This document shows positions 3,112 to 14,827 of a stretch of DNA of 20,000 bases, piece by piece. A model generated the notes under the pieces. It saw only the letters and a program-made list of their open reading frames with translations. It ran no database searches and was not told the origin of the DNA. This stretch comes from an uncultured virus (IMG/VR IMGVR_UViG_3300028372_000001) (lineage: Duplodnaviria > Heunggongvirae > Uroviricota > Caudoviricetes), in IMG/VR virus record IMGVR_UViG_3300028372_000001, one strand, 5' to 3'. How positions within the stretch are numbered: the stretch's first letter is position 1; every line of letters starts with the position of its first letter. A program made the position numbers and the translations under genes.

Positions 3112-3928
3112 CCTGTTCCTCCTTATTATTGTTTTCTGTTACAGGGATTTCTTTACTCAACATAGCCAGTGACATCTTTTCAGCGAACTTGTTCACCGGG
3201 ACTGCCTGTGTTGCAATAGTTCTTTTTTCTTCTGCACGGTTGAAAATGTCTTTAAGATTTTGCTGAGTATCCGCACCATCTTTAGCGCCACTTGCAAGCT
3301 CTTCTTTAGCAAGAGCAAACGAAACATTACGGATGACTGATTTCCTGCGTTCTTCCAACGAAGGAATGGCGGCTTCCATGTGTTTGTCTTCGGGCATGAT
3401 ATATCTGTTGCTCATAATTCTCTGAACAAACATAGCTTCACTGGGAAAGCTCGAACGTGTGTTATGGTCAAACATTCTATTCCAAAGGTCTTTGCGGAGT
3501 GACCATTCTTGCTCTGTTACATTTTCATCAGGATCAGCGTTATTCCAATATCCAAAGTACTGGACCTGTGGGTGATCTAGGAATATTTTCTCCGAAGTGC
3601 GATCATCGAAGAAGAACATTGCAAGGGTATAACCATCTACGATTCCAATGGCGACACTGTAATCACTGGCTTCATCTGGTGGGAGCCTAACATGCCGCTT
3701 AGATGCTACGAGAAGGGGTATACGCTGGTCCTCATCGGGATTAAAATAATCCTGACCCATAACATGGTACATGTCATAAATTAGAGTAGAGGTGGCCAGA
3801 ATCTCTCTGGCGCGATCCATATAGACCGCTTCTTTAACAGGACCTCGAATGGAGTCCACGAAATCATACATATCTTGAATTGTGTAAACGCCGTTAAGCA
3901 TTACACCGTTGAATATTTTTGTTGACAT
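3071..3928 (-). CDS. Hypothetical phage protein
   Basis: Long ORF; likely start is the ATG at 3928 (MSTKIFNG) after GGGG rather than 3958. Contains a YWNNxDP...EW..R...W segment. No function recognised. Confidence 0.75.
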   Translation of the reverse strand: MSTKIFNGVMLNGVYTIQDMYDFVDSIRGPVKEAVYMDRAREILATSTLIYDMYHVMGQDYFNPDEDQRIPLLVASKRHVRLPPDEASDYSVAIGIVDGYTLAMFFFDDRTSEKIFLDHPQVQYFGYWNNADPDENVTEQEWSLRKDLWNRMFDHNTRSSFPSEAMFVQRIMSNRYIMPEDKHMEAAIPSLEERRKSVIRNVSFALAKEELASGAKDGADTQQNLKDIFNRAEEKRTIATQAVPVNKFAEKMSLAMLSKEIPVTENNNKEEQDGSDGISETSSED

Positions 3929-3942
3929 TTTTACCCCATATG

Positions 3943-3976
3943 TGAAAAGAGCGTGCATTGTAGCACGCTCTTTTCA
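3943..3976 (-). terminator. Intrinsic terminator, possibly bidirectional, after the HNH gene
   Basis: 14-bp inverted repeat tgaaaagagcgtgc-attgta-gcacgctcttttca with T runs on both strands. Confidence 0.75.
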
Positions 3977-3981
3977 TGAGG

Positions 3982-4635
3982 TCAAGCCTCGTGGCCAAAT
4001 ACTGGCAATGGATCGCTATGTAGTCTGCTCTCCCGAGGAACACCCTTCATCAACCACTCCATCTGATCCGCAAGAATTCTACGGTTCTTCAAAATTAGAG
4101 CCTCGTGGTACGATGGGACATACGGAACGTAAGTCAACTGCATGTTCGCCTGTTCCGGTGTGCGGTCGTCTTTACGCTGATTGCAAGAACGACAAGCAGT
4201 TACTACATTCTGCCACACGTCTGGCCCACCCTTCGACTTCGGATGTACGTGATCGCGCGTTAGCTTACCGTTTGCGTACTTCGTTGCACAATATGCGCAA
4301 ACGTTTCGGTCACGGGTGAACAACTCGCGATTGTTAAGAGCCGGTGCCGTTCTACGATACTTGGTCGGGCTAGTACCGTTATCGAGGGCTACGATAGTGT
4401 CCAGAATCAGCGTAGACTGCTTACCAGTCTTTACGTTGATACCACCACGTAGAAGAACCTCGTACTGACCAACACTCCATAGGATTTTACCCTTAGCCGA
4501 GTAAAACGCGGAATCTTGATAGGTAATCCAATGAAGGGCTTCGCCTCCCGAATTCAAGGCCAAAATCAACGGTAGCGAATCAACACCATCAATTACCGGA
4601 GCACTGCCCCCTACTTCTTTATTGGTCAACATCAT
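3982..4635 (-). CDS. HNH endonuclease (McrA/HNH_5-like, Zn-binding)
   Basis: LFTRDRNVCAYC...TRDHVHPKSKGG...W-x-NVVTACRSCNQRK. Confidence 0.92.
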   Translation of the reverse strand: MMLTNKEVGGSAPVIDGVDSLPLILALNSGGEALHWITYQDSAFYSAKGKILWSVGQYEVLLRGGINVKTGKQSTLILDTIVALDNGTSPTKYRRTAPALNNRELFTRDRNVCAYCATKYANGKLTRDHVHPKSKGGPDVWQNVVTACRSCNQRKDDRTPEQANMQLTYVPYVPSYHEALILKNRRILADQMEWLMKGVPRESRLHSDPLPVFGHEA

Positions 4636-4646
4636 TTTCCCTTCTC

Positions 4647-5159
4647 CTATACAAAGATTACTTCGTCAAAACCCTCCTGCTTAGTCGGCGGGATATAGCT
4701 CTTGGCCATATCTCCCATGACTTTCGCTGGAATGTGCTTTCCCGTTTCACGCTCACGCTTTGCCAAACGGTCTTCCAGTTCCTGATCGTCTACCTCGAAC
4801 GATACTGCAATCTTATAGTAATCGTCAGGAACTTTCCGAAGGATACCCCTTCGCTTCTTGGGAGTCAAGTTAGTCTGGTCCCAAATAATGCTCTTACCAT
4901 TATTTACTTCTTCGCGAAACTTTTGCTTCATGATATGGGTAGCCTGCCCTACATGCTTGCCAAAGCCGGAAGTATAGTCCATTCCATCAGCTTCCGACAG
5001 ACGCTCGATTTCGTCATCGCTTGAAACAATGACATAATCAATATCAGTCTGCGCGAGCATACGATCACGCCAAGTTGACTTACCGGAACCCGGCAGGCCA
5101 ATCATCACAATGATTTCGGGACGCTGGGCGTCTCTTTCTCGCAACATCTTGGGATTCAT
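4647..5159 (-). CDS. P-loop kinase (AAA_33 / polynucleotide-kinase-like)
   Basis: Walker A GLPGSGKST, SSDD, IIWDQTN, R-x-x-R lid and C-terminal P-x-x-x-EGF. Confidence 0.87.
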   Translation of the reverse strand: MNPKMLRERDAQRPEIIVMIGLPGSGKSTWRDRMLAQTDIDYVIVSSDDEIERLSEADGMDYTSGFGKHVGQATHIMKQKFREEVNNGKSIIWDQTNLTPKKRRGILRKVPDDYYKIAVSFEVDDQELEDRLAKRERETGKHIPAKVMGDMAKSYIPPTKQEGFDEVIFV

Positions 5160-5185
5160 GTTCTTATTCCTTAAAAGTTACAGCT

Positions 5186-5214
5186 ACTTTATACTATCTA
5201 TTCGGTAATGTCAA
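5186..5214 (-). promoter_or_regulatory. Putative sigma70-type promoter for the kinase/HNH genes
   Basis: TTGACA-17 nt-TAAAGT on the minus strand, just upstream of AAGGA and the ATG at 5159. Confidence 0.55.
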
Positions 5215-5680
5215 CTACTGTAACTACCTTAATTTCGGCCTCGTCTAGCATGATATGGTTTACGCCACATGCATCATAATGTGTGCCCTTCCCCTTACCG
5301 GGAAATTTGATATTGGGACCTATGACTTCAACGATACCAGCTTGAATGATAGCACGAGTACAATCGGAACAACACTCTACCTGATAATTCATGTACATTT
5401 TACAACCCCGCGTCGAAACCCCAACGCGGGCTGCGTTAAAAATTGCGTTCCGCTCACCGTGTTCAGTCCATTCATACTTCTGTGGGCGCTCCCATCTATC
5501 TTCGATATCTTCGTTGACGTTTCGTGGAAATCCATTAAAGCCTGTACTGACTACTTCATTATCTGGCCCTACGATTATTGCACCACATTTGGTACTCTGA
5601 TCCTTGGACTTGCTCGCAGCTAATTGAGCCATTTTCACAAAATATTCATCCCAACTGCTTGCTCTTCGTTCACTTCTCAT
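5198..5680 (-). CDS. dCMP deaminase
   Basis: WDEYF, SKD..TKCGA, GFNGFP, HGE (HAE-type) and CCSDC (PCxxC-type) zinc motifs, IIQAGI. Confidence 0.92.
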   Translation of the reverse strand: MRSERRASSWDEYFVKMAQLAASKSKDQSTKCGAIIVGPDNEVVSTGFNGFPRNVNEDIEDRWERPQKYEWTEHGERNAIFNAARVGVSTRGCKMYMNYQVECCSDCTRAIIQAGIVEVIGPNIKFPGKGKGTHYDACGVNHIMLDEAEIKVVTVVDITE

Positions 5681-5952
5681 TTATTATCCTTTAAAATTTT
5701 TTCAATTTGATTTGTTCTCTGTTTGCCGTAGCAAGACTCACAGGGTACATTGCCTCGACGTACCGCATTTTCTACTACTGGATCAAAGTCCATCATTTCG
5801 GCATGAAGGAGATTCATTGTCATATGAGTTGTAAGCCAAATTGGCAAGCGATCAATGATTCGGCCTTGAGTTGCAATAGGATAACGCTGGGCATCCCAGT
5901 ACATCTTATGCATAAGCTCGGGCATCCACTCTATATCTTCTTGATGTACCAT
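5677..5952 (-). CDS. Hypothetical protein, 91 aa, with one CxxC
   Basis: ATG with GGAG Shine-Dalgarno; ATGA overlap with the dCMP deaminase. Confidence 0.7.
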   Translation of the reverse strand: MVHQEDIEWMPELMHKMYWDAQRYPIATQGRIIDRLPIWLTTHMTMNLLHAEMMDFDPVVENAVRRGNVPCESCYGKQRTNQIEKILKDNK

Positions 5953-5964
5953 ATATTCTCCAAT

Positions 5965-5986
5965 AAAAAAGGGGGCCGAAGCCCCC
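5965..5986 (-). terminator. Intrinsic terminator of the NAD operon, with cUUCGg tetraloop
   Basis: Minus strand reads gggggc-ttcg-gccccc-tttttt. Confidence 0.88.
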
Positions 5987-6047
5987 CCCCCATCGAATCC
6001 CCATCAGTGTATAGTGCTCACTTTTGGGGTAACTTAAACTGCTTCGC

Positions 6048-7484
6048 TTACTTGCCGGGAAAATCCCGTAGGGCTGCGAGTTCGCGAACTTCATCAAACG
6101 TTTGCTTCCTAAGAATCTTACCATTCTGGAAAACCGTGTCCATTGCAACTACTTCGGTGTTCTTCATAGTGTCGTGCTGGTTAATCGTCCTGTACTCTTT
6201 CGTCTCAGTATCTTGAACGAGAGTCAAAATTCCAGCCTTCGACGCCTTGGTAGGATCAGTGATCGGAACCTTCTGAATATCACGAGCATCACCATCAACA
6301 ACGATGTGAGAGCCCTTGATTGCAAACCGCAGTGTATCACGATCCAGCTTCCGAAGCAAGCCTCCACCACTACCAAAGTTGATGTTATCTGCCGAGTAGC
6401 CCAGAGATTCAAAGTTGCCAAGGATATCTTTGACCGCTTGCAAATCAACACCATCACCTTGAATGATTCGAACGCAATCGTTCAATACCTTGAAGCCCTT
6501 GTCGTTGACATAGGAGCCAAACAACTCGTCCAACTTCGTGACAACAAGCTCGGTCATTTCAACAGGCACGCCACTATCGGGGCGAATAACGATCACACCG
6601 TTGCTTTCGATTTCTTCTCGAAGCTCACCAAACATTTCGATGGCTGCAACAAGATCGTAGGTGTCACATACTACAGAGCAGATGCCGGTCTTAGGCAGCA
6701 CGGTACGGACGATGTTGGCGAAGAAATCAAACTCACGAAGTTTACCCCATCCAATAGTAACAGTGTGTTCCGTAGCAGGAATTGAGAATCCGGCCATGCC
6801 ACTGGCTGTACCGTAGTAGTCTTCTGCCATGCAAATGCCAATCATGTTATCAGTGGAAGTACCCGAGGTCAGGTGAGCAGCGCCACCAACCATGGCTTCT
6901 TCCTTGGTGCTAACACCACGACTACCAAAGTCCACAAGCTTCGTGTTTGCAAGTTCCGGCGAACCCGTGCGTTCAAGAGAATTCTTAAACACTTTGAGGA
7001 ACTCACGAGAGTGGGTTGCAACCGTAATGGGGTACCAAGAGCGCATGTAAATGTTTTCGAAGTACGAAGCACACCAAGACACATTAAATCGAGGATCAGT
7101 CGTCTCGATAGTCATTAGTGCATTGTTTACCGGAACAACAGCACCTTCCTTAACAGCCCTGACCTTAATGGGAATAAATCCATTGTGATCATTAACAACA
7201 GCTTCCCAACCTTTACGGTTGAATGCGGCTGTAGTACCTATGTGCTTTTCAATGAACTCTTCGGCCTGATCAACCATTTCCATGGTTACAGGTTCCATCA
7301 TTTCATGCTCAAGAATGTACTGAAGGCCGAAGAAAACGGTCTCATCGTACAACGCACCCGCTCGCGCCTCAAGATATACTTGAGAGAAGCTAGTGCCATT
7401 CTCCATGAACATCCAGTGCCCAACTTTATAAGTGTCGGTGTTCAAGATAACATTATCAGTAAGTTTAAGTTCTTGGTTTTTCAT
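6048..7484 (-). CDS. nadV: Nicotinamide phosphoribosyltransferase (NAMPT)
   Basis: TDTYKVGH, DFGSRG, TDN, SIPATEH (phospho-His), SVVCDTYD, VIRPDSG, IIQGDG, FGSGGGLL and RDT..FA.K are all intact. Confidence 0.95.
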   Translation of the reverse strand: MKNQELKLTDNVILNTDTYKVGHWMFMENGTSFSQVYLEARAGALYDETVFFGLQYILEHEMMEPVTMEMVDQAEEFIEKHIGTTAAFNRKGWEAVVNDHNGFIPIKVRAVKEGAVVPVNNALMTIETTDPRFNVSWCASYFENIYMRSWYPITVATHSREFLKVFKNSLERTGSPELANTKLVDFGSRGVSTKEEAMVGGAAHLTSGTSTDNMIGICMAEDYYGTASGMAGFSIPATEHTVTIGWGKLREFDFFANIVRTVLPKTGICSVVCDTYDLVAAIEMFGELREEIESNGVIVIRPDSGVPVEMTELVVTKLDELFGSYVNDKGFKVLNDCVRIIQGDGVDLQAVKDILGNFESLGYSADNINFGSGGGLLRKLDRDTLRFAIKGSHIVVDGDARDIQKVPITDPTKASKAGILTLVQDTETKEYRTINQHDTMKNTEVVAMDTVFQNGKILRKQTFDEVRELAALRDFPGK

Positions 7485-7506
7485 TTGCCATATCTCCTAT
7501 GTGCAA
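7485..7506 (-). promoter_or_regulatory. RBS-containing hairpin, copy 2, directly before the NAMPT ATG
   Basis: Minus strand TTGC-A-CATA-GGAGA-TATG-GCAA then ATG. The 18-nt core is identical to 8637-8654. Confidence 0.7.
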
Positions 7507-7549
7507 GTTTAGTTTTACGAGATTACGCTCAATGCTGTTTACTATAACA

Positions 7550-8635
7550 TCACCCGATGAAATAGTCAAGTATATCAGCATGGTCTTCGAAAAGTTGATC
7601 CCGCATTCTATGGACTTCAGCGAATGGGAACCACCATGCTTTCAAGATTCCGGGACCTGCCCGTAAGCCCTTCACAGGGAGTGGACGAGAAGAATCAAGT
7701 TCGTAGTAGAAGGCCGTTGTAAGCGTTCTATTTCGGTCTGTCGTAAGCCTAGCACGCAATGAGCGATTAGGATTGTCAAATTCGTGTTTATCAGTCAATG
7801 AACCTTTGAATGCTTTTACTGGCACATCAAGATTAGTCTCACTTAGCACCGCACGAATAGAAGCGTCTTCAAGCGTTTCATTCGGTCCAAGGTGAACCCC
7901 CGGCAATGCCCATTGTCCATAGCCCATGGGGTTTCCACGCTGCACCAATAGCACGTGTCCAGACTGTGCCACAACCGAATCAACCGTCTGGAATGTAATG
8001 CCGTATGGTAGAGCCTCATATAACTTTTCTTCACTCCTAATATATTCATATTCTTCACGAAGAATCTTGAATTCATCACTTAGAATGAAGTCTTGCATCC
8101 AGTTGTAAACATAGGGAGTAACATTACTTTCAATGTAACCGAGGTGCCCCTCAAATATAAGTTCACGGATTTTGGTAGAGGACACAACCTTACCAGCGTT
8201 TCCTTTGACGTATGGCCCAGTTTCAACAAACGACCAGTTAGGGAAGTTCTCACGAAGGTAATAACTACTTGAATCCTTTTCGTGTCCAATAATTCCGATA
8301 CGCGGATTGGTCTTGCCAGTCGTATAACGAGCAATATCAGCTACAGAACCTTGAATAAAAGTAATCCATTTAGATTCTTTGTAGCGATGATCTTCCGCAT
8401 GTATGAATGTAAGTTTAGAAAAATCAATACCATCTGCAAGGGCAGAGTTGCTAAGCATATCTTGCCGCTCTGCGGCGGTCCATGGATTTTTTGGTGTGCG
8501 GGCGGCGTTGGATGAACCAATTATGATAATAACTTGATCTGCCGCGTTGGCTGCCTGTCGCAGCGTAGACATATGTCCATCATCGGAAGGTTCGAACCTT
8601 CCGATGTAAACAATTGCATCGTATTCTTTACTCAT
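7550..8635 (-). CDS. nadM: NMN adenylyltransferase-Nudix fusion (NadM-Nudix/NatV-like) with degenerate catalytic motifs
   Basis: YIGRFEP..GH, IIGSSN..RTPKNPW, IGHEKDSSSYYL..FP.W, SSTKIRE, TVDSVV.QSGHVLL, WALPG, RSLR.R..T and FEDH. Start placed at the second ATG (8635) from SD spacing; the ORF track uses 8641. Confidence 0.92.
   Translation of the reverse strand: MSKEYDAIVYIGRFEPSDDGHMSTLRQAANAADQVIIIIGSSNAARTPKNPWTAAERQDMLSNSALADGIDFSKLTFIHAEDHRYKESKWITFIQGSVADIARYTTGKTNPRIGIIGHEKDSSSYYLRENFPNWSFVETGPYVKGNAGKVVSSTKIRELIFEGHLGYIESNVTPYVYNWMQDFILSDEFKILREEYEYIRSEEKLYEALPYGITFQTVDSVVAQSGHVLLVQRGNPMGYGQWALPGVHLGPNETLEDASIRAVLSETNLDVPVKAFKGSLTDKHEFDNPNRSLRARLTTDRNRTLTTAFYYELDSSRPLPVKGLRAGPGILKAWWFPFAEVHRMRDQLFEDHADILDYFIG
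8581..8606. repeat. Perfect 26-bp palindrome inside the NMNAT signature codons
   Basis: catcggaaggttc|gaaccttccgatg is its own reverse complement. Confidence 0.95.
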
Positions 8636-8655
8636 AGCCATATCTCCTATGTGCT
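8636..8655 (-). promoter_or_regulatory. RBS-containing hairpin, copy 1, directly before the NMNAT-Nudix ATG
   Basis: Minus strand AGC-A-CATA-GGAGA-TATG-GCT then ATG. Confidence 0.7.
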
Positions 8656-8671
8656 GAGTGATATACTGTGT

Positions 8672-8700
8672 ATTATATAACTATTTATCTAACTTGTCAA
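8672..8700 (-). promoter_or_regulatory. Consensus sigma70 promoter of the NAD operon, with a GATAAATA box (8682-8689) in the spacer
   Basis: Minus strand TTGACA-agttagataaatagtta (17 nt)-TATAAT. Confidence 0.9.
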
Positions 8701-8710
8701 GTGGTATAAT

Positions 8711-8738
8711 AAGAAAGGGGCCAGATGGCCCCCTTCTT
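8711..8738 (-). terminator. Intrinsic terminator after the structural gene 8755-9999
   Basis: Minus strand ggggcca-tc-tggcccc-tttctt. Confidence 0.8.
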
Positions 8739-8754
8739 AAGCATTATATAGGGA

Positions 8755-9999
8755 TTAAATCTCTACGTCAATGCGTGTTGCGTTTACAGTTGTGGTATCC
8801 GTAGATGTAATCTGCAGACCCATCGTCTGAGCAGCGCCTGTACCCGATAGTACCACATCGAACTTTAGACCTAAAATAGCGCCATTCAAGCGAAGCTTGG
8901 AACTGACGCTCCAATCAACCTCGGTAGCATCGGCCCCGGCTGTCCCATCATGCGTTGCATAAACTTCAACAGATTCTTTCTGCGTCGGATCACCTTCATC
9001 AAACACAGTGACAAACCATTTTGAGGTCTGAATATCATCAATTAACACAGTATCCACTGTCGTTGCTGTCGTAACGCCCGTAGAAACAGACGTGTTTGGC
9101 GCAACATCAGCGATAGCAATGTCAAGAGCGTCAATAGATGCTGTAATGGTCTGACCATCTGTTACGAAATTATCTTCAGTGTAAGTTCGGTTACCAATAG
9201 CGATATCAAGAGCATCCAAAGATGCGGTTACAGTCTCGGCATCCGTTACAATGTTTTGTTCAGTGTATGTGCGATCACCAATTGCGGTATCAAGTTCACC
9301 AATTGCAGCCTCAAGTGTACCACCTTGAGTAACAACTACTGCGGAGGAATAAGTTGGCGTTTCGGAGCCAGCAGCCGTCTTACCAATGAAGGCACGAATA
9401 AATGCTAGTTCCGCGTTATTTGTAGTAGAAGCGATTTGCTGCCATACTGTACTGTCATACACCCATTGTGACTCAGCATACGTACCATCTTGAACAAGTA
9501 ATGCGTCGCCGTCGGTTGCTGTGTTTACGTCTTCCGTGAATGTCCAGTTCCCTGTTGAACCAGAAACAATATAAACGTTCTCGTTACCAGTTGTCAAATC
9601 CGTAAAGAGAACGCGATCATCTGCGGCAATTGTAACACCATCAACCGTATCACCTACGTTTGCCGCTGTTTCTGCTGCGGTAATATCAGCGTATGTGGTA
9701 TCATCAAGTACGAGGATGGGCTCTCTCCATGAGAGACCGTTGATTAGGTTATCAACGTAAGACTTGGACGCAGACTGTACCCAGTCTGCAGCTGCATTTG
9801 TGTCAGTAATTTTCTGATAAACTACAGAAATTGATGCCGATGCGTCCGTTCGCAAATAAATGGAACCAACGGGGGCATCATCTTGGTAACTGGTATCGCC
9901 ACCGGGTACGCCAGAACCAGATAGGACGCTACCCGCACGGGTACCGTCTTCTTCATCAATTGAAAGTCCAAGTGCAACTCTGAATAGATCTAATGCCAT
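8755..9999 (-). CDS. Putative virion structural (fibre/decoration-type) protein
   Basis: Acidic and Thr/Asp/Ala-rich. Has KSYVD...GLSW and VDGVTI...DRVL....EN.VY segments typical of phage fibre proteins, 28-aa internal repeats and a C-terminal beta-rich domain. Late box CATAAATA and AAGGA SD upstream. Confidence 0.7.
   Translation of the reverse strand: MALDLFRVALGLSIDEEDGTRAGSVLSGSGVPGGDTSYQDDAPVGSIYLRTDASASISVVYQKITDTNAAADWVQSASKSYVDNLINGLSWREPILVLDDTTYADITAAETAANVGDTVDGVTIAADDRVLFTDLTTGNENVYIVSGSTGNWTFTEDVNTATDGDALLVQDGTYAESQWVYDSTVWQQIASTTNNAELAFIRAFIGKTAAGSETPTYSSAVVVTQGGTLEAAIGELDTAIGDRTYTEQNIVTDAETVTASLDALDIAIGNRTYTEDNFVTDGQTITASIDALDIAIADVAPNTSVSTGVTTATTVDTVLIDDIQTSKWFVTVFDEGDPTQKESVEVYATHDGTAGADATEVDWSVSSKLRLNGAILGLKFDVVLSGTGAAQTMGLQITSTDTTTVNATRIDVEI
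9113..9320 (-). repeat. About 84-nt (28-aa) degenerate tandem repeat, about 2.5 copies
   Basis: LDTAIGDRTYTEQNIVTDAETVTASLDA / LDIAIGNRTYTEDNFVTDGQTITASIDA / LDIAIAD. Boundaries approximate. Confidence 0.85.
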
Positions 10000-10020
10000 G
10001 AGTATTTTTCCTTACTATTA

Positions 10021-10028
10021 TATTTATG
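10021..10028 (-). promoter_or_regulatory. Late promoter box CATAAATA
   Basis: About 22 nt upstream of the ATG at 9999. A second copy, CTAAATA, is at 10098-10104. Confidence 0.7.
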
Positions 10029-10044
10029 AAAGTGTTTAACATAA

Positions 10045-10077
10045 TTACACTTTTACGGCACATATATCTAATGCCAT
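10045..10077 (-). other. Chimeric mini-ORF MALDICAVKV*
   Basis: ATG GCA TTA GAT ATA TGT GCC GTA AAA GTG TAA, preceded by the duplicated AAGGA SD and TAAATA box. Translation is unproven. Confidence 0.55.
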
Positions 10078-10129
10078 GAGTATTTTCCTTACTATTATAT
10101 TTAGTTTAGTTTGAATATTATATTCATAA

Positions 10130-10501
10130 TTACACTTTTACGGCACATATATCTAAAGGATGAGCTTCATTATTTGTCAAGGAGAATACAATGTTCGTGT
10201 TAGGCACTCCAGTTGCTACAATAACGTCAACTTCTGTGTTAGTATCATCACCAAGCTTTGATGATAGATTCCAATGCACATTACCTTCGTAGTCATGTAC
10301 CGTGGTGAGAACAAAATATTGTGTGCTTTGAATTAGGGAAGTTCTATCAGACACCGAAATTTGCCACCGTACAAAAGGGCACCCTGAACCGTCAAATGTT
10401 TCGACTATTTCAGTATCGCCCGGTGAAACGGTTAGCTCGATTGGTAAAGTATTGCCGCCTGTCCCACCAACAATTCGCCTTGTTAATATAATTCCTTCCA
10501 T
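10130..10501 (-). CDS. Small beta-rich putative virion protein resembling the C-terminal domain of 8755-9999
   Basis: VETFD...VRWQISVSD...VHD...SSKL pattern parallels VDTV...SKWFVTVFD...THD...SSKL. CATAAATA upstream. Confidence 0.7.
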   Translation of the reverse strand: MEGIILTRRIVGGTGGNTLPIELTVSPGDTEIVETFDGSGCPFVRWQISVSDRTSLIQSTQYFVLTTVHDYEGNVHWNLSSKLGDDTNTEVDVIVATGVPNTNIVFSLTNNEAHPLDICAVKV

Positions 10502-10539
10502 TAATCACCACCAGTTAGGTACATTATCACCCTAAAACT

Positions 10540-10565
10540 CTAAATATCACTATATGCTATTTATG
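10540..10565. promoter_or_regulatory. Pair of opposed late boxes: CTAAATA (+, 10540-10546) and CATAAATA (-, 10558-10565)
   Basis: Located in the short spacer between divergent genes; each box points at the gene on the far side of the other. Confidence 0.6.
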
Positions 10566-10583
10566 TCTTGAGAAGGGACCGCA

Positions 10584-11117
10584 ATGAGTAAAATTATTTC
10601 TTCCTTTTTTACTAATGCTGGGAGCCCTGCCGTTGGCTTGTCTCCTACCATTAGAATTTGGGAAGTAACAACAATTGGTGATACCCTAGTCGTCAACAGT
10701 GACGCAATGACAGAAGTGGGTGATGGCTTTTACAAATACGAGTTTGTTACGTATGATCCGACAACTCAATATTTAATTCGCACCGATGGTGGTGCTACTT
10801 TGCCCACTACTGAAAGATACCAAGAGGGAAGTAACCAAAACTCAGCGAACGAGGTCTGGAATCAACAGACCACGGACTTCAATGATCTTGGTACCTTTGG
10901 TGAACAATCTAACGATATCGACAGCAATGCAACGGCTGCTCTTGCAGTTCTTGACGTTCTTCTCAAATACGAATCCAACAGAACTCGCGTTGACCCTATA
11001 GCAAATACCCTTACAATATTTGACGATGACGGAACAACTATCTTACAAGTCTTTGATCTTAAGGATGAGAATAGCGATCCGTCCTCTACATGTATTTACG
11101 AGAGAGACCCACAATAA
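10584..11117 (+). CDS. Hypothetical acidic protein, probably virion-associated
   Basis: ATG after AAGGGA. EVGDGFYKYEF...DGG and LTIFDDDGTT segments; late-gene context. Confidence 0.75.
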   Translation: MSKIISSFFTNAGSPAVGLSPTIRIWEVTTIGDTLVVNSDAMTEVGDGFYKYEFVTYDPTTQYLIRTDGGATLPTTERYQEGSNQNSANEVWNQQTTDFNDLGTFGEQSNDIDSNATAALAVLDVLLKYESNRTRVDPIANTLTIFDDDGTTILQVFDLKDENSDPSSTCIYERDPQ

Positions 11118-11563
11118 TGCCTACAACAGGAAATTGCAGTGGTCCGTGCTTTGGGTGTGCTGGGAACGTCATACTCAAAGGTATGGCGGGAGACGGCAAG
11201 CGACTAGTTGTTGGATTCTTTTATCACCAGATCAGAGTAGAGGTTGATGATGTAAGACCGGGTGGTGCTGGTGGGCCTATACCGCCGCCGCCTGATCCCG
11301 GTATGCAGTATCATCCAGAGAGGGATACCACAGACCATAATAAGGTCGAAGTTACTGTTACAGTCAAGTGGCCATTCATGAATGAACCTAAGAGAATGCT
11401 CTTCATAATGGAGCGTCGGTGGGCAAACGTTGTAGTGAACCGAATCAATCAAATAAATACCTTTAACGAGAAGTTTAATGTGCGAATCGGTGAGCTAAAA
11501 GACGACTTTAAAGTCAAGTACACCGATTTCAAAGATAAATTTGGTGTCAAATGGAAGAAATGA
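11117..11563 (+). CDS. Hypothetical protein with N-terminal CxxxCxxC and Gly/Pro linker
   Basis: TAATG overlap with the upstream stop suggests a start at 11117 rather than 11090. Confidence 0.7.
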   Translation: MPTTGNCSGPCFGCAGNVILKGMAGDGKRLVVGFFYHQIRVEVDDVRPGGAGGPIPPPPDPGMQYHPERDTTDHNKVEVTVTVKWPFMNEPKRMLFIMERRWANVVVNRINQINTFNEKFNVRIGELKDDFKVKYTDFKDKFGVKWKK

Positions 11564-12345
11564 ATCTAGTCATAGCCGTGAACGTCCCTTATGAAGTGGA
11601 GATAACAGCCACCGGTATACCCTTGCATGAAGCAAAGGTAGAATTTTGTGTACATAAAAATGACGTAAGCTACAACTTTCCAGCAAAGATGGTTGATGAC
11701 AAGAAATTCATTTTTACTATTACCGAAGCATTAACTGGTATGTCAAATAAAACACACGAGTACCGACTATACGTATATTACGGTAACGCTCGGTTTGAAG
11801 CAGATACTGGTTCCTTCAACTTAGTTGACAAGAAAGCTTTTGATGTTAAGATGACTGGGGCGAAAGAAGAAAAGAAAGAGTCGTTACGTGATAGGCTTCT
11901 AGATAAAACAACCAAAAAGCCTGCCAAGAAAGTTGAAGTCACGCCCACACCAGAGCCTGCCGAAGAAGAAAAGGTTAAGGTAGAAAAGAAAGTTACAGCT
12001 ACTAAACCTACTCCAACACCAACAATAGAACCTACGACTACACTTGATCAAGCTAAAGATGCGCTCAAGAAGTCGAAGAAGATTACTGTTGAAGCTGTGA
12101 ATGAAGATGATTCAGCAGAAGATGCTAATGCGAAGGTCCGTAAAATTCTATCGTCTATTGATAAGAGAGCAGTGCCAACAGAATCAATGTCACCTACGCC
12201 AACCGTCGCACTTGAGCCAACAGAAACGCAGCAGCCGGGTCAGTTCTTTGCTGAAATTGAGCGTATGCGTGAAATTAACGAGAGTCGTCGCAGAAATAAA
12301 GTAGTCAAGGACGCTATTCGTAAGACTACGAAGAAAAACGATTAA
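11551..12345 (+). CDS. Hypothetical protein: beta-rich N-terminal domain plus charged Pro/Thr-rich tail
   Basis: 264-aa ORF; start may be 11560 (ATGA overlap). AATAAATA at 11452-11459 upstream. Confidence 0.75.
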   Translation: MEEMNLVIAVNVPYEVEITATGIPLHEAKVEFCVHKNDVSYNFPAKMVDDKKFIFTITEALTGMSNKTHEYRLYVYYGNARFEADTGSFNLVDKKAFDVKMTGAKEEKKESLRDRLLDKTTKKPAKKVEVTPTPEPAEEEKVKVEKKVTATKPTPTPTIEPTTTLDQAKDALKKSKKITVEAVNEDDSAEDANAKVRKILSSIDKRAVPTESMSPTPTVALEPTETQQPGQFFAEIERMREINESRRRNKVVKDAIRKTTKKND

Positions 12346-12529
12346 GCATAGCTATACGAGCTTCGCCTAATATTTCCTCTACCTTCTCCCTACAAGTCTG
12401 ACAACCGGAACAGACACCTGTGGTATAAGCTAAATCTTGAACGGTGTCAATATCAGGATCATTCATGATTTCTTCCATTATTTGAGATTCTGTCATATCA
12501 GCGCATAAGCAAACGTACATATCGTTCAA
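12326..12529 (-). CDS. bfd: BFD-like [2Fe-2S] ferredoxin
   Basis: MYVCLC...GVCSGCQTC fits C-x-C...C-x2-C. GGAGG SD; start is TTG 12529 or ATG 12520. Confidence 0.85.
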   Translation of the reverse strand: MNDMYVCLCADMTESQIMEEIMNDPDIDTVQDLAYTTGVCSGCQTCREKVEEILGEARIAMLNRFSS

Positions 12530-12541
12530 ATCAACCTCCAG

Positions 12542-12569
12542 AAAAAGAAAGGGGGCCAGTTGGCCCCCT
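12542..12569 (-). terminator. Intrinsic terminator after the 743-aa gene
   Basis: Minus strand agggggcca-ac-tggccccct-ttcttttt; stem similar to 8711-8738. Confidence 0.85.
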
Positions 12570-12595
12570 GAATCTATACCTAATGAATGTATAGC

Positions 12596-14827
12596 TTACT
12601 TGGAATCGTCTCCAGTTGCAAGATAATTCACAAGCTGACCGGGGAACATGTCCCAAATCGGGCTCATAAGAGTACCAAAGAAGATTTGAGCTTCCATAAA
12701 GCCTTCGTGATCACCACGACCCAAGTTCTTCTTGATTTGCTCTAAGCACTCAATTGCGTTGTGCTTAACGCTCTTCTCATTATACCCGTTGTTGTCGTAA
12801 CGTTCAACAGATTTCTTGAGTTCAGTGATACGCTTGTCAATTGACGACATAACTTCACGAGGAACCTTAACTTTGGTGCCAACACGGTCAGCACGTCCAG
12901 TACGCTCATCTTTCTGCTGCTGATCATCTACTGCATCATATGGCTGATCACCACCGAAAACAGTTGCATCAACTGCCGCTTCACCCAAGGACCCGGATTT
13001 AACCTTACTGACTGGTACTTTGATTGATTCTTCTTCCCCTACGTCAACAACACAAAAATCACTCTCAGGTCCCGTTGTATCCGTTCGAACAACCTTACCG
13101 GAGACCATCTTACCTTTATGTGGTACTTTTACCGTGTCGCCTTTTTTATATGATTCATCAACGCGACCAGATTCACCGTCCCACTCACCGACGCCTACAC
13201 GCTTACCGTCTTTTTTAACAAAAGCTTGAGCAATATCTTTATCACCTTCAAACTCTACGGCACCATGCTTCTTCTTGAGTGCAGCCTTCCAAGCAGAATA
13301 TGTCTGCTGACCTTCCATGGTTGTTCCTTCATTCAGACCTTTGAGCTTATCCTTAAGAGCATCAATTTTAGCATTGATATCATCTCGGCGCTTATGACCA
13401 TTAGTCTGTACACGCTTAGCAATTAGCTCATCGATTTCCTTTTCAATTTTTCTTTTATCTTCAGCTTCAGTTACACTGCCTTCATTCAGACCTTTGAGCT
13501 TATCCTTAAGAGCATCAATTTTAGCATTGATATCATCTCGGCGCTTATGACCATTAGTCTGTACACGCTTAGCAATTAGCTCAGCGATTTCCTTTTCAAT
13601 TTTTCTTTTATCTTCAGCTTCAGTTACACTGCCTTCATTTTTAGGAACACAGTTAGGAACTTCTTTGCCGTTCTTCTTCTTTGTTCCAACCATTTCATGA
13701 CTGTCCCAGCATGGGTCTTCACCATCCATTTTCTTCTTAGCTTCAGTAACTTCTTTCTTATCGTTAAGAAGCTTCTTGACTGTGGATGCTTTAACCATAT
13801 CGACCTTGCCATCTTTGGTTGCAGAAATACCAACCATGCTAGCTGGCCCATCAGGGACAACAACAAACATCTCCTTACCACCACAAGTTACTTTGTCACC
13901 TTTCGAGAACACTTTACTCGTATCTTTGGCTTTCATATCATCAGAATTATCAGATTCAGTCATACGGGCGTTGCCCTTGCCAAGCTTGCGGGAAGCCTTA
14001 GATGCTGCACGCTTCTGCTCTTTGGAACCCGGACGACCGTATGAGCCAGCAGCCTTTCGACCGGTAGCTTTGTCTTCCTTTCCTTCCATATCAATGGTGC
14101 CGCCACCAAGATTTACAGGCTTACTGTAAATGTCTGTGCCCATATCACTCATATCGCCCATTTCACCATCGGCGCTATCTGGGTCTTCTGGAGACTCACT
14201 GTCGAGGTAATCGGTAGCGGTGTCAAGATACTCGGCTGCAATTGTAACCTTTGATTGAACCCATGCTGGAAGCTCAGAACCATCATCGATCATAGTGCAT
14301 AGACGCTCGATGTTGTCCTTCATGTTATCCATTTGACGACGAGCCATTTCACCATCTGGGTGCTCATCTCCCATATCATCCATATCATCCATATCGTCCA
14401 TGTCGTCCACAGGCATACGGTCGCCGCCTTTGCTTACTTCCATATCACTATAGCCGTTATTGCGAAGGACAGAAGCCATTGGGCGCATTTCCATCATACC
14501 CTCTAAGCGTAAATCAAGCTTTTCAGCCCCACGCCGAGCATGCAATATAACGGAAGGAACATATTCCTTACTTTCCGTCATTGATCCCGCTTCTTTGTCG
14601 GATAGATACATATCAGTGCGGCGATCATAGTACTTGCCCTCTTTCTTATCGTAGTACACAACTCGGCCATTTTTCATTTTGAATGGACCCTCTAGGCCCT
14701 TTACTGGTCCCTGATGATCCAATGAATCGTCTTCCTCGATTTCATATTTTTCATAAAGACTAGTGATGAAGCCACTTTTTTCAGCGACACCAGATAGTTC
14801 TAGGAGTCTACGTAGGTCTTTGTTCAT
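12596..14827 (-). CDS. Large modular, highly charged protein; putative capsid-internal protein processed by the prohead protease
   Basis: N-terminal LRRLLELSGV; many hydrophobic-x-E-[S/A/G] sites between short modules; late box AATAAATA and GAGG SD upstream. Confidence 0.65.
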   Translation of the reverse strand: MNKDLRRLLELSGVAEKSGFITSLYEKYEIEEDDSLDHQGPVKGLEGPFKMKNGRVVYYDKKEGKYYDRRTDMYLSDKEAGSMTESKEYVPSVILHARRGAEKLDLRLEGMMEMRPMASVLRNNGYSDMEVSKGGDRMPVDDMDDMDDMDDMGDEHPDGEMARRQMDNMKDNIERLCTMIDDGSELPAWVQSKVTIAAEYLDTATDYLDSESPEDPDSADGEMGDMSDMGTDIYSKPVNLGGGTIDMEGKEDKATGRKAAGSYGRPGSKEQKRAASKASRKLGKGNARMTESDNSDDMKAKDTSKVFSKGDKVTCGGKEMFVVVPDGPASMVGISATKDGKVDMVKASTVKKLLNDKKEVTEAKKKMDGEDPCWDSHEMVGTKKKNGKEVPNCVPKNEGSVTEAEDKRKIEKEIAELIAKRVQTNGHKRRDDINAKIDALKDKLKGLNEGSVTEAEDKRKIEKEIDELIAKRVQTNGHKRRDDINAKIDALKDKLKGLNEGTTMEGQQTYSAWKAALKKKHGAVEFEGDKDIAQAFVKKDGKRVGVGEWDGESGRVDESYKKGDTVKVPHKGKMVSGKVVRTDTTGPESDFCVVDVGEEESIKVPVSKVKSGSLGEAAVDATVFGGDQPYDAVDDQQQKDERTGRADRVGTKVKVPREVMSSIDKRITELKKSVERYDNNGYNEKSVKHNAIECLEQIKKNLGRGDHEGFMEAQIFFGTLMSPIWDMFPGQLVNYLATGDDSK
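13326..13639. repeat. 153-bp (51-aa) tandem duplication, two copies
   Basis: Period 153 (ccttcattcagacc at 13326 and 13479). One visible difference: EIAE versus EIDE. Confidence 0.95.
14371..14409. repeat. 9-nt minisatellite encoding (DDM)n
   Basis: ccatatcat ccatatcat ccatatcgt ccatgtcgt cca. Confidence 0.85.

What the first reader, a model, noticed from the sequence alone, without database searches (positions are those of the whole stretch)
7550..8635. NMNAT-Nudix fusion with both catalytic signatures degenerate, next to an intact NAMPT: pseudoenzyme or sensor?
Seen: the nucleotidyltransferase motif reads GRFEPSDDGH instead of GRF(Q/E)PxHxGH, with the first His replaced by Asp. The Nudix box (about 7829-7900) reads V-HLGPN-E-TLEDASI-RAVLSETNL against G-x5-E-x7-REUxEExGU, losing both Gly and two Glu. 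The DDA usually found before the last Trp of NadM-Nudix is replaced by GPGI. The ORF is nevertheless full length and keeps SSTKIRE, RSLR and FEDH. Known: NrtR regulators use inactive Nudix domains to sense ADP-ribose. Inference: the protein may be an ADP-ribose/NAD-binding regulator or sponge, or an NMNAT that has shed its hydrolase activity. Together with the paired RBS hairpins this could be an undescribed metabolite-responsive autoregulatory loop.
Basis: partly seen in the sequence, partly recalled or inferred. Interest (0 to 1): 0.78.

Follow-up and report, generated by a model that had tools for sequence, protein, structure and literature searches.

The report
Phage NAD-salvage enzyme with dead-looking motifs
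A lake phage's NAD-rebuilding enzyme carries an anciently remodelled, still conserved Nudix domain, plus a recent mutation in its other active site that only some copies of the phage carry.

Summary
The ORF (minus strand, 7550-8641/8635) is a full-length NadM-Nudix/NatV homologue. It reads GRFEPSDDGH, has the Nudix box V-x5-E-x7-RAVLSE, and has GPGI where relatives have DDA. An intact NAMPT lies next to it.

The two defects have different histories.

1. The Nudix changes (G249V, E264A, D331G, A332I; E267 and D330 freed) are shared by a well-supported clade of 34 uncultured-phage NatV proteins. The domain stays under strong purifying selection. It is a conserved non-canonical Nudix domain, not decay. 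It has most likely lost ADP-ribose hydrolysis and serves ligand binding or structure.

2. H20D is private to this phage population. All 118 listed relatives that cover the motif have His, including a 99.8%-identical sister contig. Both alleles occur in lake metagenomes from 2017 to 2020. The same change (H28D) abolishes activity in a related adenylyltransferase. H20D therefore looks like a segregating loss-of-function allele, not an evolved sensor.

The genes form a discrete NARP2-type operon: consensus promoter, natV, nampt, terminator. A conserved hairpin with the Shine-Dalgarno sequence in its loop, supported by covariation, precedes both genes and occurs nowhere else. It also occurs in a relative with a canonical NatV. 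Autoregulation by NatV is untested.

Verdict: a new variant of a known kind, of moderate interest.

The parts
8711..8738 (-). G+C-rich hairpin followed by a T-run, after the upstream structural gene. Likely a terminator that insulates the operon.
   Evidence: Read directly (aagaagggggcc-atct-ggcccctttctt). The consensus scan did not list it.
8672..8700 (-). Sigma-70 consensus promoter: TTGACA, 17 nt spacer, TATAAT (12 of 12 positions).
   Evidence: The sequence is shown.
8636..8655 (-). Hairpin 1 (stem 7 bp with one bulged A, loop GGAGA), with the Shine-Dalgarno sequence in the loop, just 5' of the natV start.
   Evidence: In the alignment, 96.4% of cells are paired, 3 of 7 pairs show compensatory changes, and 0 of 500 shuffles reach the observed values.
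7550..8641 (-). natV: NMNAT-Nudix fusion, 363 aa from the first ATG. The likely start is the ATG at 8635.
8573..8602 (-). Nucleotidyltransferase motif GRFEPSDDGH. Codon 20 is GAT (Asp) where relatives have His. The polymorphic bases are 8584 and 8585.
8162..8182 (-). Second NMNAT motif SSTKIRE (the ISxTxxR type), intact.
7829..7897 (-). Remodelled Nudix box V249-x5-E255-x7-R263-A264-V-L-S267-E268-T-N-L.
7646..7657 (-). Loop G329-P-G-I332, replacing the canonical D-D-A.
7486..7505 (-). Hairpin 2 with the Shine-Dalgarno sequence in the loop. It contains the same 18-mer as hairpin 1 and lies just 5' of the nampt start.
6048..7484 (-). nampt (NadV-type nicotinamide phosphoribosyltransferase), 478 aa, full length.
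5968..5991 (-). Intrinsic terminator-like hairpin with a T-run, closing the two-gene operon.

Best explanation
This is the natV gene of a NARP2-type NAD+ reconstitution operon (natV plus nampt) of an uncultured lake phage. Two events of very different age produced the 'doubly degenerate' look.

(1) Ancient and clade-wide. In the ancestor of a clade of at least 34 phage NatV proteins, the metal-binding and catalytic residues of the Nudix domain were replaced by small or hydrophobic residues (G249V, E264A, D331G, A332I). Two further acidic positions (E267, D330) were released from constraint. The rest of the domain stayed invariant, including E255, R263, E268, the FDxPxRSLRxR stretch, R305, W337 and FEDH. 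I infer that this domain no longer hydrolyses ADP-ribose by the canonical Nudix mechanism. I infer that it is kept for a non-hydrolytic role: binding ADP-ribose or a similar nucleotide, and/or holding the enzyme's quaternary structure. The NMNAT domain of clade members remains the working enzyme.

(2) Recent and private. In this phage population, a two-base change (TCA CAT to TCC GAT) turned the first His of the (H/T)xGH motif into Asp. By analogy with the identical H28D mutant of a related adenylyltransferase, I infer that this allele has little or no NMN adenylyltransferase activity. It is a standing loss-of-function or hypomorphic polymorphism in an accessory anti-defence gene, not an evolved sensor.

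Shown here: the motifs, the clade, the constraint, the polymorphism, and the operon with its hairpins. Inferred: loss of both activities, ligand binding, and tolerance of the allele because NARP2 is dispensable or costly on hosts without NAD-depleting defences.
For: Identity
- Pfam finds both domains. The match to 2qjo is E 3.5e-67.
- The AF2 model has pLDDT 91.3 and pTM 0.87. Foldseek gives TM 0.85/0.92 to 2qjo_B.
- natV and nampt are adjacent in the window and in L002, L003, L004 and L005.
- The pair is bounded by a 12/12 promoter and a terminator.
- NARP2 is defined as Nampt plus Nmnat of phage KVP40 (bioRxiv 10.1101/2024.02.11.579819, passages read).

Nudix remodelling
- 35 of the 120 listed homologues carry PG[VT]H...R[AVS]xx-x-E together with G-x-G-[IV] in place of DDA. 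The other 84 full-length proteins are canonical. P0032 is intermediate.
- On a tree of 119 sequences, the 34 full-length degenerate proteins form one clade (support 0.998). P0032 is its sister (support 0.981).
- The new residues are conserved at 0.94-0.97.
- The Nudix/NMNAT p-distance ratio is 0.71 in the clade and 0.73 in canonical relatives.
- Window versus L002, Nudix domain: pN 0.096, pS 0.66.
- Perturbed Nudix signatures go with loss of ADPR hydrolysis but retained ADPR binding in NrtR (PMC2330246) and in TRPM2 NUDT9H (PMC4974056).

H20D
- All 118 listed relatives with the motif have His.
- Of 149 cluster representatives with the motif, 146 have His, 3 have Thr and none has Asp.
- Cluster members with Asp are on record for 8 and 4 contigs. 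Those with His are on record for 1, 1 and 1 contigs.
- L012 is 99.8% identical over 9.09 kb and has TCA CAT.
- Contigs of runs X4 and X5 carry His. Those of X6 and X10 carry Asp.
- In CaFADS, H28D lowers kcat from 17 to below 0.1 per min while the fold is retained (PMC3509593, Table 1, seen).
Against: - No activity or binding was measured.
- The same two Glu positions are replaced (RLx2AE) in GDP-mannose mannosyl hydrolases, which are active enzymes with altered chemistry (PMC5389931). A missing canonical box therefore does not prove an inert domain.
- The catalytic role of the DD loop is inferred from co-loss only. The NadM-Nudix structure paper could not be read.
- The Asp allele is the more often assembled one (12 contig records against 3) and persists from 2017 to 2020. 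That is unexpected for a costly null and could mean Asp is tolerated.
- Thr is a natural alternative at this motif position, so the position is not absolutely His.
- The microdiversity gives no gene-specific signal. Across the 9.09 kb, 7 of 10 substitutions are nonsynonymous.
- The window lineage is not an outlier in the clade for deviations at conserved sites (rank 12 of 34).
Confidence: 0.6

Rival explanations
1. The clade's Nudix domain is a neofunctionalised enzyme. It is still catalytic but uses different chemistry or a different substrate. The precedent is GDP-mannose mannosyl hydrolase, which replaced the same two glutamates and uses one metal and a different base.
For: - GDPMH/NudD enzymes have the box GX5EX7RLX2AEXGU, with the same two Glu positions substituted, and are active (PMC5389931).
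- phmmer gives weak matches of residues 219-288 to GDPMH chains 1rya and 2gt4 (E 0.0021) and 2i8t (E 0.0024).
- The replaced positions are tightly conserved in their new state.
- Several positions are constrained only in the clade: S222, V233, S261, L299, P320, G329, W336, D359 and the C-terminal FIG.
- E255, R263, E268, H250 and H354 remain invariant.
Against: - The first Gly of the box and the DD loop are also lost, and the replacements are non-polar (V, A, G, I). No new polar or catalytic residue appears at a switch site.
- In ADP-ribose the phosphate is not on an anomeric carbon, so GDPMH-type chemistry does not transfer directly. This point is inference from established chemistry.
- No candidate substrate is suggested by the gene context.
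Confidence: 0.15
2. NatV is an ADP-ribose/NAD-binding regulator or sponge. It binds the two Shine-Dalgarno hairpins and so closes a metabolite-responsive autoregulatory loop on the natV-nampt operon.
For: - The hairpins are real. The 14-mer ACATAGGAGNTATG occurs only before natV and nampt in the window and in four related phage records, about 190 kb in all.
- The stem has compensatory changes: 3 of 7 pairs, 96.4% of cells paired against at most 43% in slid controls.
- A ligand-binding, non-hydrolysing Nudix domain is plausible (see the best explanation).
Against: - The same hairpins flank the canonical-Nudix NatV of L004. They predate the remodelling and do not depend on it.
- NatV has no recognisable nucleic-acid-binding domain. 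Pfam finds only the two enzyme domains, and the protein ends with the Nudix domain.
- All relatives keep intact NMNAT motifs, so the clade is an enzyme, not a dedicated regulator.
- The folding energies of the single hairpins are unremarkable (z -2.2 and -1.3).
- No binding was tested.
Confidence: 0.05
3. Asp20 is tolerated or adaptive. The NMNAT stays active, for example with Asp contacting Mg-ATP, and the allele is neutral or changes kinetics or specificity rather than killing the enzyme.
For: - The Asp allele is the one most often assembled (8+4 contig records against 1+1+1).
- It is found in runs of 2019 and 2020 as well as in the 2017 runs that hold the window.
- The motif position naturally accepts Thr in 3 of 149 representatives.
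- CaFADS H28D keeps its fold and still binds ATP, 4-7-fold more weakly.
Against: - Asp is seen in none of 267 other family members with the motif (118, 149).
- The identical substitution abolishes adenylyltransferase activity in CaFADS, with kcat below 0.1 against 17 per min.
- The same population also carries Y198S at an otherwise invariant site and a frameshift at codon 282. This fits relaxed constraint better than adaptation.
Confidence: 0.2

Closest known systems
[quoted passage not shown]
   Same: The two-domain architecture, length and fold are the same (E 3.5e-67, TM 0.85/0.92). The second NMNAT motif, RSLR and FEDH are kept. The gene is paired with nadV/nampt.
   Different: The canonical Nudix box and DD loop are replaced in the whole clade. 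The KVP40-type protein (phi-pp2) and the Xoo-sp13 protein are canonical at all these sites. The window allele additionally has Asp for the first His of HxGH.
NARP2 (phage NAD+ reconstitution pathway 2: Nampt plus Nmnat)
   Same: Both genes lie together in a phage, here as a discrete promoter-to-terminator cassette. The definition comes from passages of the bioRxiv preprint read.
   Different: The Nmnat partner here carries a non-canonical Nudix domain. In this allele it probably also has a crippled adenylyltransferase. Anti-defence activity was not tested.
NrtR (Nudix-related transcriptional regulators)
   Same: It has a Nudix domain related to the NadM ADPRase with a perturbed signature. It shows no ADPR hydrolysis and binds ADPR as an effector (PMC2330246).
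   Different: [quoted passage not shown] Here the replacements are uniform and conserved, and there is no DNA-binding domain.
TRPM2 NUDT9-homology domain
   Same: It is a Nudix domain with substitutions in the box that binds ADPR but does not hydrolyse it (PMC4974056). From recall, the substituted positions are the same two glutamates.
   Different: It is a eukaryotic ion-channel gating module from a different Nudix subfamily. It is not fused to an enzyme.
GDP-mannose mannosyl hydrolase (NudD/Gmm)
   Same: Its Nudix box is RLx2AE, with the same two Glu positions replaced by non-acidic residues (PMC5389931).
   Different: It is an active glycosyl hydrolase that keeps the first Gly. Its similarity to the window protein is weak (E about 0.002).
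CaFADS H28D (FMN adenylyltransferase, HxGH superfamily)
   Same: It has the identical substitution of the first His of HxGH by Asp. The fold is retained and activity is lost.
   Different: It is an engineered mutant of a different family member. The effect on an NMNAT was not measured.

Membership tests
NadM-Nudix / NatV | N-terminal nucleotidyltransferase domain fused to a C-terminal Nudix domain, about 340-370 aa | tested here: met
   Pfam PF01467 at 11-160 and PF00293 at 223-360. Full-length alignment to 2qjo and 2qjt. Foldseek TM 0.85/0.92.
NadM-Nudix / NatV | (H/T)xGH ATP-binding motif | tested here: not met
   The window reads D-D-G-H. The sister allele (P0001, L012, L013) reads H-D-G-H.
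NadM-Nudix / NatV | Second NMNAT motif (SxTxxR) | tested here: met
   SSTKIRE at residues 154-160.
NadM-Nudix / NatV | Canonical Nudix box GX5EX7REUXEEXGU | tested here: not met
   The box reads V249...R263-A-V-L-S-E268. Only E255, R263 and E268 are kept.
NadM-Nudix / NatV | D-D-A loop before the C-terminal Trp (conserved at 0.89/0.99/0.95 in 84 canonical relatives) | tested here: not met
   G-P-G-I. The catalytic role of the loop is inferred, not read from a paper.
NadM-Nudix / NatV | NMNAT and ADPR pyrophosphatase activities | not testable with these tools
   Needs enzyme assays.
NARP2 | Phage-encoded Nampt together with Nmnat | tested here: met
   nampt lies directly downstream of natV in one promoter-terminator unit. 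The pairing is kept in L002-L005.
NARP2 | Rebuilds NAD+ and overcomes NAD-depleting defence | not testable with these tools
   Needs infection or co-expression assays.
NrtR | C-terminal winged-helix DNA-binding domain | tested here: not met
   No domain lies beyond the Nudix domain, and the protein ends at FEDHADILDYFIG.
NrtR | Nudix-like domain with a perturbed signature that binds ADPR | tested here: inconclusive
   The signature is perturbed. Binding was not tested.
GDP-mannose mannosyl hydrolase type Nudix | RLx2AE box with the first Gly kept, and sequence kinship | tested here: not met
   The same two Glu positions are replaced, but the Gly is lost. Only weak matches were found: E 0.0021 for 1rya and 2gt4, 0.0024 for 2i8t. 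The box definition is from PMC5389931.

The most novel reading that the evidence does not exclude
In this clade of lake-phage NARP2 systems, the Nudix domain has become a receptor for ADP-ribose or for an NAD-derived immune signal such as a cyclic ADPR isomer. Binding either switches the attached NMNAT on when a host NADase fires, or sequesters the signal. The two gene-specific Shine-Dalgarno hairpins give the operon its own translational control. Together they would form a sense-and-respond anti-defence module rather than a constitutive salvage pathway.
Probability: 0.12. Interest if true: 0.8.

Novelty: new variant of a known kind. Interest (0 to 1): 0.5.

Why it matters
NARP2 (Nampt plus NatV) is one of the few known ways in which phages undo NAD+ depletion by bacterial immunity. 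The role of the Nudix half of NatV in that contest is unsettled. A whole clade keeps the domain under strong constraint after discarding its catalytic residues. That argues the domain does something other than hydrolyse ADP-ribose, and it gives a natural separation-of-function set for testing what.

The segregating H20D allele, the Y198S change and the frameshift allele suggest that NARP2 can be dispensable or costly in nature. This fits the metabolic cost noted for NARP2.

The Shine-Dalgarno hairpin is specific to the two genes and supported by covariation. It points to dedicated post-transcriptional control of an anti-defence operon.

Tried and rejected
- Megablast of window 5000-10000 against 50,697 phage records gave no match. 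By tblastn the best cultured-phage relative is only 41% identical. No isolate in that collection is as similar as the clade members are (50% or more). Only Xoo-sp13 and phi-pp2 were inspected, and both are canonical.
- No whole genome is held for the window. Whether the phage has a second NMNAT or Nudix gene therefore could not be checked. In the 84.5-kb record of the 74% relative (estimated 25% complete), natV is the only PF00293 match and the only PF01467 match.
- Pairwise dN/dS is limited because synonymous sites are saturated (pS 0.66-0.92). Only window-L002 and a few other pairs gave finite values, which should be read as upper-bound-type estimates.
- The profile search of 1.84 billion representatives returned no member of the degenerate clade among its best 150, so it did not enlarge the clade. 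It did show a second, independent degenerate lineage and natural T-x-x-H and H-x-G-Q variants.
- An Rfam scan of 5900-8800 at E up to 1 gave only a chance-level snoRNA match.
- The look-up of sequencing runs listed no RNA holder, so nothing can be said about expression.
- All laid runs are contigs, not reads, so allele frequencies within a sample could not be measured.
- Earlier findings of the scan returned nothing.
- Four paper look-ups failed because the papers are not held: the NadM-Nudix structure paper (twice, by DOI and by PMC id), the KVP40 paper and the NrtR structure paper. Residue roles in NadM-Nudix and the measured activities of KVP40 NatV are therefore taken from citing papers or from recall.
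- Literature searches listed no title or abstract describing a NatV clade with a degenerate Nudix box. Passages searched in PMC9503650 held no 'inactive Nudix'. Subscription papers and bioRxiv supplements were not visible.
- General decay of natV in this lineage was considered and not supported. The window has 7 deviations from the clade's 90% consensus (rank 12 of 34) and a mid-range root-to-tip distance.
Full report
WHAT IS THERE

The finding's coordinates hold an ORF on the minus strand, 7550..8641 (363 aa). It lies 8 nt after GGAG and is the more likely start.

Pfam finds a cytidylyltransferase-like domain at residues 11-160 and a NUDIX domain at 223-360. [quoted passage not shown] The Francisella enzyme 2qjt follows. 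An AlphaFold2 model built on 33 clade sequences is confident (mean pLDDT 91.3, pTM 0.87). It superposes on 2qjo_B with TM 0.85/0.92.

Directly downstream lies a full-length NAMPT (6048..7484, minus strand). The window is phage DNA. It carries PhoH, MazG, HNH, dCMP deaminase, a head-decoration-like protein and a DNA polymerase exonuclease subunit. It has no near relative among 50,697 deposited phages. Near-identical DNA is held by lake and salt-lake metagenome runs.

Residues 14-23 read GRFEPSDDGH, against GRFQPFHLGH in 2qjo. The Nudix box reads V249-HLGPN-E255-TLEDASI-R263-A-V-L-S267-E268-T-N-L, against GX5EX7REUXEEXGU. G329-P-G-I332 stands where canonical relatives have D-D-A. SSTKIRE, RSLR and FEDH are kept.

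THE TWO DEFECTS HAVE DIFFERENT HISTORIES

Nudix domain. A word-seeded search of 5.8 billion proteins gave 760 homologues at E 1e-10 or better. I tabulated the best 120.
- 35 of the 120 (all at 50% identity or more to the window) carry PG[VT]H...R[AVS]xx-x-E together with G-x-G-[IV].
- One protein, P0032, is intermediate: PGGH, RILREE, GEGI.
- The other 84 full-length proteins are canonical: PGG[HF]...RELxEE and DDA.

I built a FastTree LG+gamma tree of 119 sequences, leaving out the two N-terminally truncated hits P0037 and P0047. The 34 full-length degenerate proteins, window included, form one clade with support 0.998. P0032 is its sister with support 0.981.

Comparing 33 clade members with 84 canonical proteins site by site gave the following.
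- Exactly four positions in the Nudix domain switch from one conserved residue to another: G249V, E264A, D331G and A332I.
- Three positions lose constraint: E267 and D330, which are acidic in canonical relatives, and V326.
- The other invariant residues stay invariant in both groups: Q226, R235, E255, R263, E268, F288, P291, R293, S294, R305, W337, E352, D353 and H354.

The domain is not decaying.
- Mean p-distance is 0.316 for Nudix and 0.444 for NMNAT inside the clade, a ratio of 0.71.
- In canonical proteins the values are 0.421 and 0.579, a ratio of 0.73.
- Between the window and the 74%-identical L002 gene, the Nudix domain has pN 0.096 against pS 0.66. The NMNAT domain has pN 0.205 against a saturated pS.

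The KVP40-type NatV (phage phi-pp2) and the closest cultured-phage protein (Xoo-sp13) are canonical at every one of these sites. A profile search of 1.84 billion cluster representatives showed a second, independent degenerate lineage (P0223 and P0227, 44% identical to each other). It has LKILKKE / INILRKK boxes, and its loop is also altered (GFDS / ADNS). Loss of the box and loss of the DD loop therefore go together at least twice.

NMNAT motif. All 118 listed homologues that cover the motif have His at the first position. Of 149 representatives with the motif, 146 have His, 3 have Thr and none has Asp. Three others have H-x-G-Q.

The cluster representative P0001 differs from the window protein at two residues only, D20H and Y198S. 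The 90% cluster holds five sequences.
- Asp20 forms are on record for 8 and 4 contigs.
- His20 forms are on record for 1, 1 and 1 contigs.

A 59-kb metagenome contig (L012) is 99.8% identical to window 3549-12640, with 10 substitutions and 3 indels. It reads TCA CAT where the window reads TCC GAT, an adjacent two-base difference at 8585/8584. The short contig L013 reads the same as L012.

I laid the contigs of four further runs on the window. Runs X4 (2017) and X5 (2019) carry the His allele. Runs X6 (2019) and X10 (2020) carry the Asp allele. These are contigs, so they show the majority form in each assembly, not frequencies. Runs of one habitat may belong to one campaign.

The allele is therefore real, young and segregating. 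The same population also holds Y198S, at a residue invariant in all 33 clade sequences aligned, in L012 and X4. It also holds a one-base deletion at 7796 that frameshifts natV at codon 282. That deletion is in L013/P0124, and in X5 it appears as a bubble with about half the depth.

The background is itself rich in nonsynonymous changes: 7 of 10 substitutions over 9.09 kb. The window lineage is not an outlier for deviations at conserved sites. The data therefore do not single out natV statistically.

HOW IT MOST LIKELY WORKS

Perturbed Nudix signatures go with loss of ADP-ribose hydrolysis and retained ADP-ribose binding in two systems.
- NrtR: Slr1690 has kcat about 1.4e-4 per s, raised 600-fold by restoring the signature. 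ADPR releases the protein from DNA (PMC2330246, passages).
- The NUDT9-homology domain of TRPM2 (PMC4974056, passages).

The box residues bind the metal ions that orient the diphosphate (PMC5389931). I therefore infer that the clade's Nudix domain no longer hydrolyses ADP-ribose in the canonical way. I also infer that it is kept for binding and/or for quaternary structure, while the NMNAT half remains an enzyme in the clade.

For H20D there is a direct precedent. In the FMN adenylyltransferase module of C. ammoniagenes FAD synthetase, which carries the same HxGH motif, H28D lowers kcat from 17 to below 0.1 per min. The fold and stability stay like wild type, and ATP binding is 4-7-fold weaker (PMC3509593, Tables 1 and 3, seen). 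I infer that the window allele is a null or strong hypomorph.

Persistence of the allele would be understandable if NARP2 is dispensable on hosts without NAD-depleting defences. The NARP2 preprint notes its metabolic cost and its toxicity on cloning. This last step is speculation.

THE OPERON AND ITS HAIRPINS

After the upstream structural gene come these elements, in order:
- a G+C hairpin with a T-run (8711-8738);
- a 12/12 sigma-70 consensus promoter (8700-8672);
- natV and then nampt;
- a terminator-like hairpin (5991-5968).

An identical 18-mer, GCACATAGGAGATATGGC, precedes both starts. No shuffle of the window gives a match.

Its core, ACATAGGAGNTATG, occurs exactly before natV and before nampt and nowhere else. 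This holds in the window and in the whole held records of four related phages of 84.5, 18.9, 39.2 and 47.3 kb, which have 2, 2, 2 and 1 copies. The last record is cut inside natV.

The nine copies fold as a 7-bp stem with one bulged A and a GGAGN loop.
- 96.4% of cells are paired, against at most 43% when the partner is slid.
- 3 of 7 pairs carry compensatory double changes: GC/GC, AU/AU, GU../..AC.
- 0 of 500 shuffles reach the observed values.

The sample is only eight distinct, related rows. The element is conserved while synonymous sites of the genes are saturated. It is present around the canonical NatV of L004, so it is independent of the Nudix remodelling. It matches no Rfam family.

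It probably sets or controls translation of the two genes together. Possible mechanisms are a repressor site, Shine-Dalgarno presentation, or a GGAG-directed nuclease target, as recalled for T4 RegB. That NatV itself is the ligand-sensing repressor is possible but has no support here.

COMPARISON AND VERDICT

By architecture, fold and context the protein is a NatV/NadM-Nudix orthologue in a NARP2-type operon. It fails three sequence criteria of the bifunctional enzyme: the HxGH first His (this allele only), the Nudix box and the DD loop.

In its Nudix half it most resembles NrtR and TRPM2-NUDT9H in logic. It lacks NrtR's DNA-binding domain.

GDP-mannose mannosyl hydrolases replace the same two glutamates yet are active. 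This keeps a neofunctionalised-enzyme rival alive.

None of the titles and abstracts listed by three literature searches describes such a NatV clade. I read passages only in the papers cited above. The primary NadM-Nudix and KVP40 papers were not readable here.

The finding is a new variant of a known kind. It is of moderate interest for the conserved dead-box clade and the gene-specific hairpins, and ordinary for the private H20D allele.

Noticed in passing
window 8636-8655 and 7486-7505 (minus strand); L002 4990-5003 and 6908-6921; L003 3674-3687 and 4781-4794; L004 4626-4639 and 5718-5731; L005 590-603: A conserved hairpin with the Shine-Dalgarno sequence in its loop (core ACATAGGAGNTATG) lies exactly before natV and before nampt. 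It occurs nowhere else in the window or in about 190 kb of four related phage records. The outer stem shows compensatory changes. It is also present with a canonical NatV. No Rfam family matches.
   Followed up: yes
window 8049 (codon 198 of natV): Y198S is a second nonsynonymous polymorphism, at a residue invariant in all 33 clade sequences aligned. It is seen in L012, P0001, P0123 and run X4, always on the His20 background.
   Followed up: partly
window 7796 (codon 282 of natV); L013; run X5: A one-base deletion, not in a homopolymer, frameshifts the Nudix domain. It is seen in a 1,155-nt contig (product P0124, 320 aa). In run X5 it appears as an assembly bubble at about half the depth. It is a possible third damaging natV allele in the same population.
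   Followed up: partly
window 6063 (3' end of nampt) and 5989-5991 (terminator G-run): Relative to the window, L012 lacks one T of a T4 run five codons before the nampt stop. This replaces the last residues and extends the frame to 524 aa. L012 also has G7 instead of G10 in the terminator stem. Both are homopolymer-length differences and may be assembly errors.
   Followed up: partly
proteins P0223 and P0227 (cluster representatives): A second, independent NadM-Nudix lineage also has a degenerate Nudix box (LKILKKE / INILRKK) and an altered DD loop (GFDS / ADNS). P0227 also has LRA in place of GRF.
   Followed up: partly
proteins P0186, P0209, P0257 and P0136, P0138, P0168: There are natural variants of the NMNAT motif in the family. 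Three of 149 representatives read T-x-A-H, as recalled for human NMNAT and PPAT. Three of 149 read H-x-G-Q.
   Followed up: no
window 8743-8771 (minus strand): A second near-consensus promoter (TTGACG, 17 nt, TATAAT; 11/12) overlaps the end of the upstream structural gene. It lies just before the hairpin at 8711-8738, giving the order promoter, hairpin, promoter.
   Followed up: no
L002 record (G001, 84.5 kb): CheckV-type completeness of 25% for an 84.5-kb fragment suggests that the related phages have very large genomes, of the order of 300 kb.
   Followed up: no
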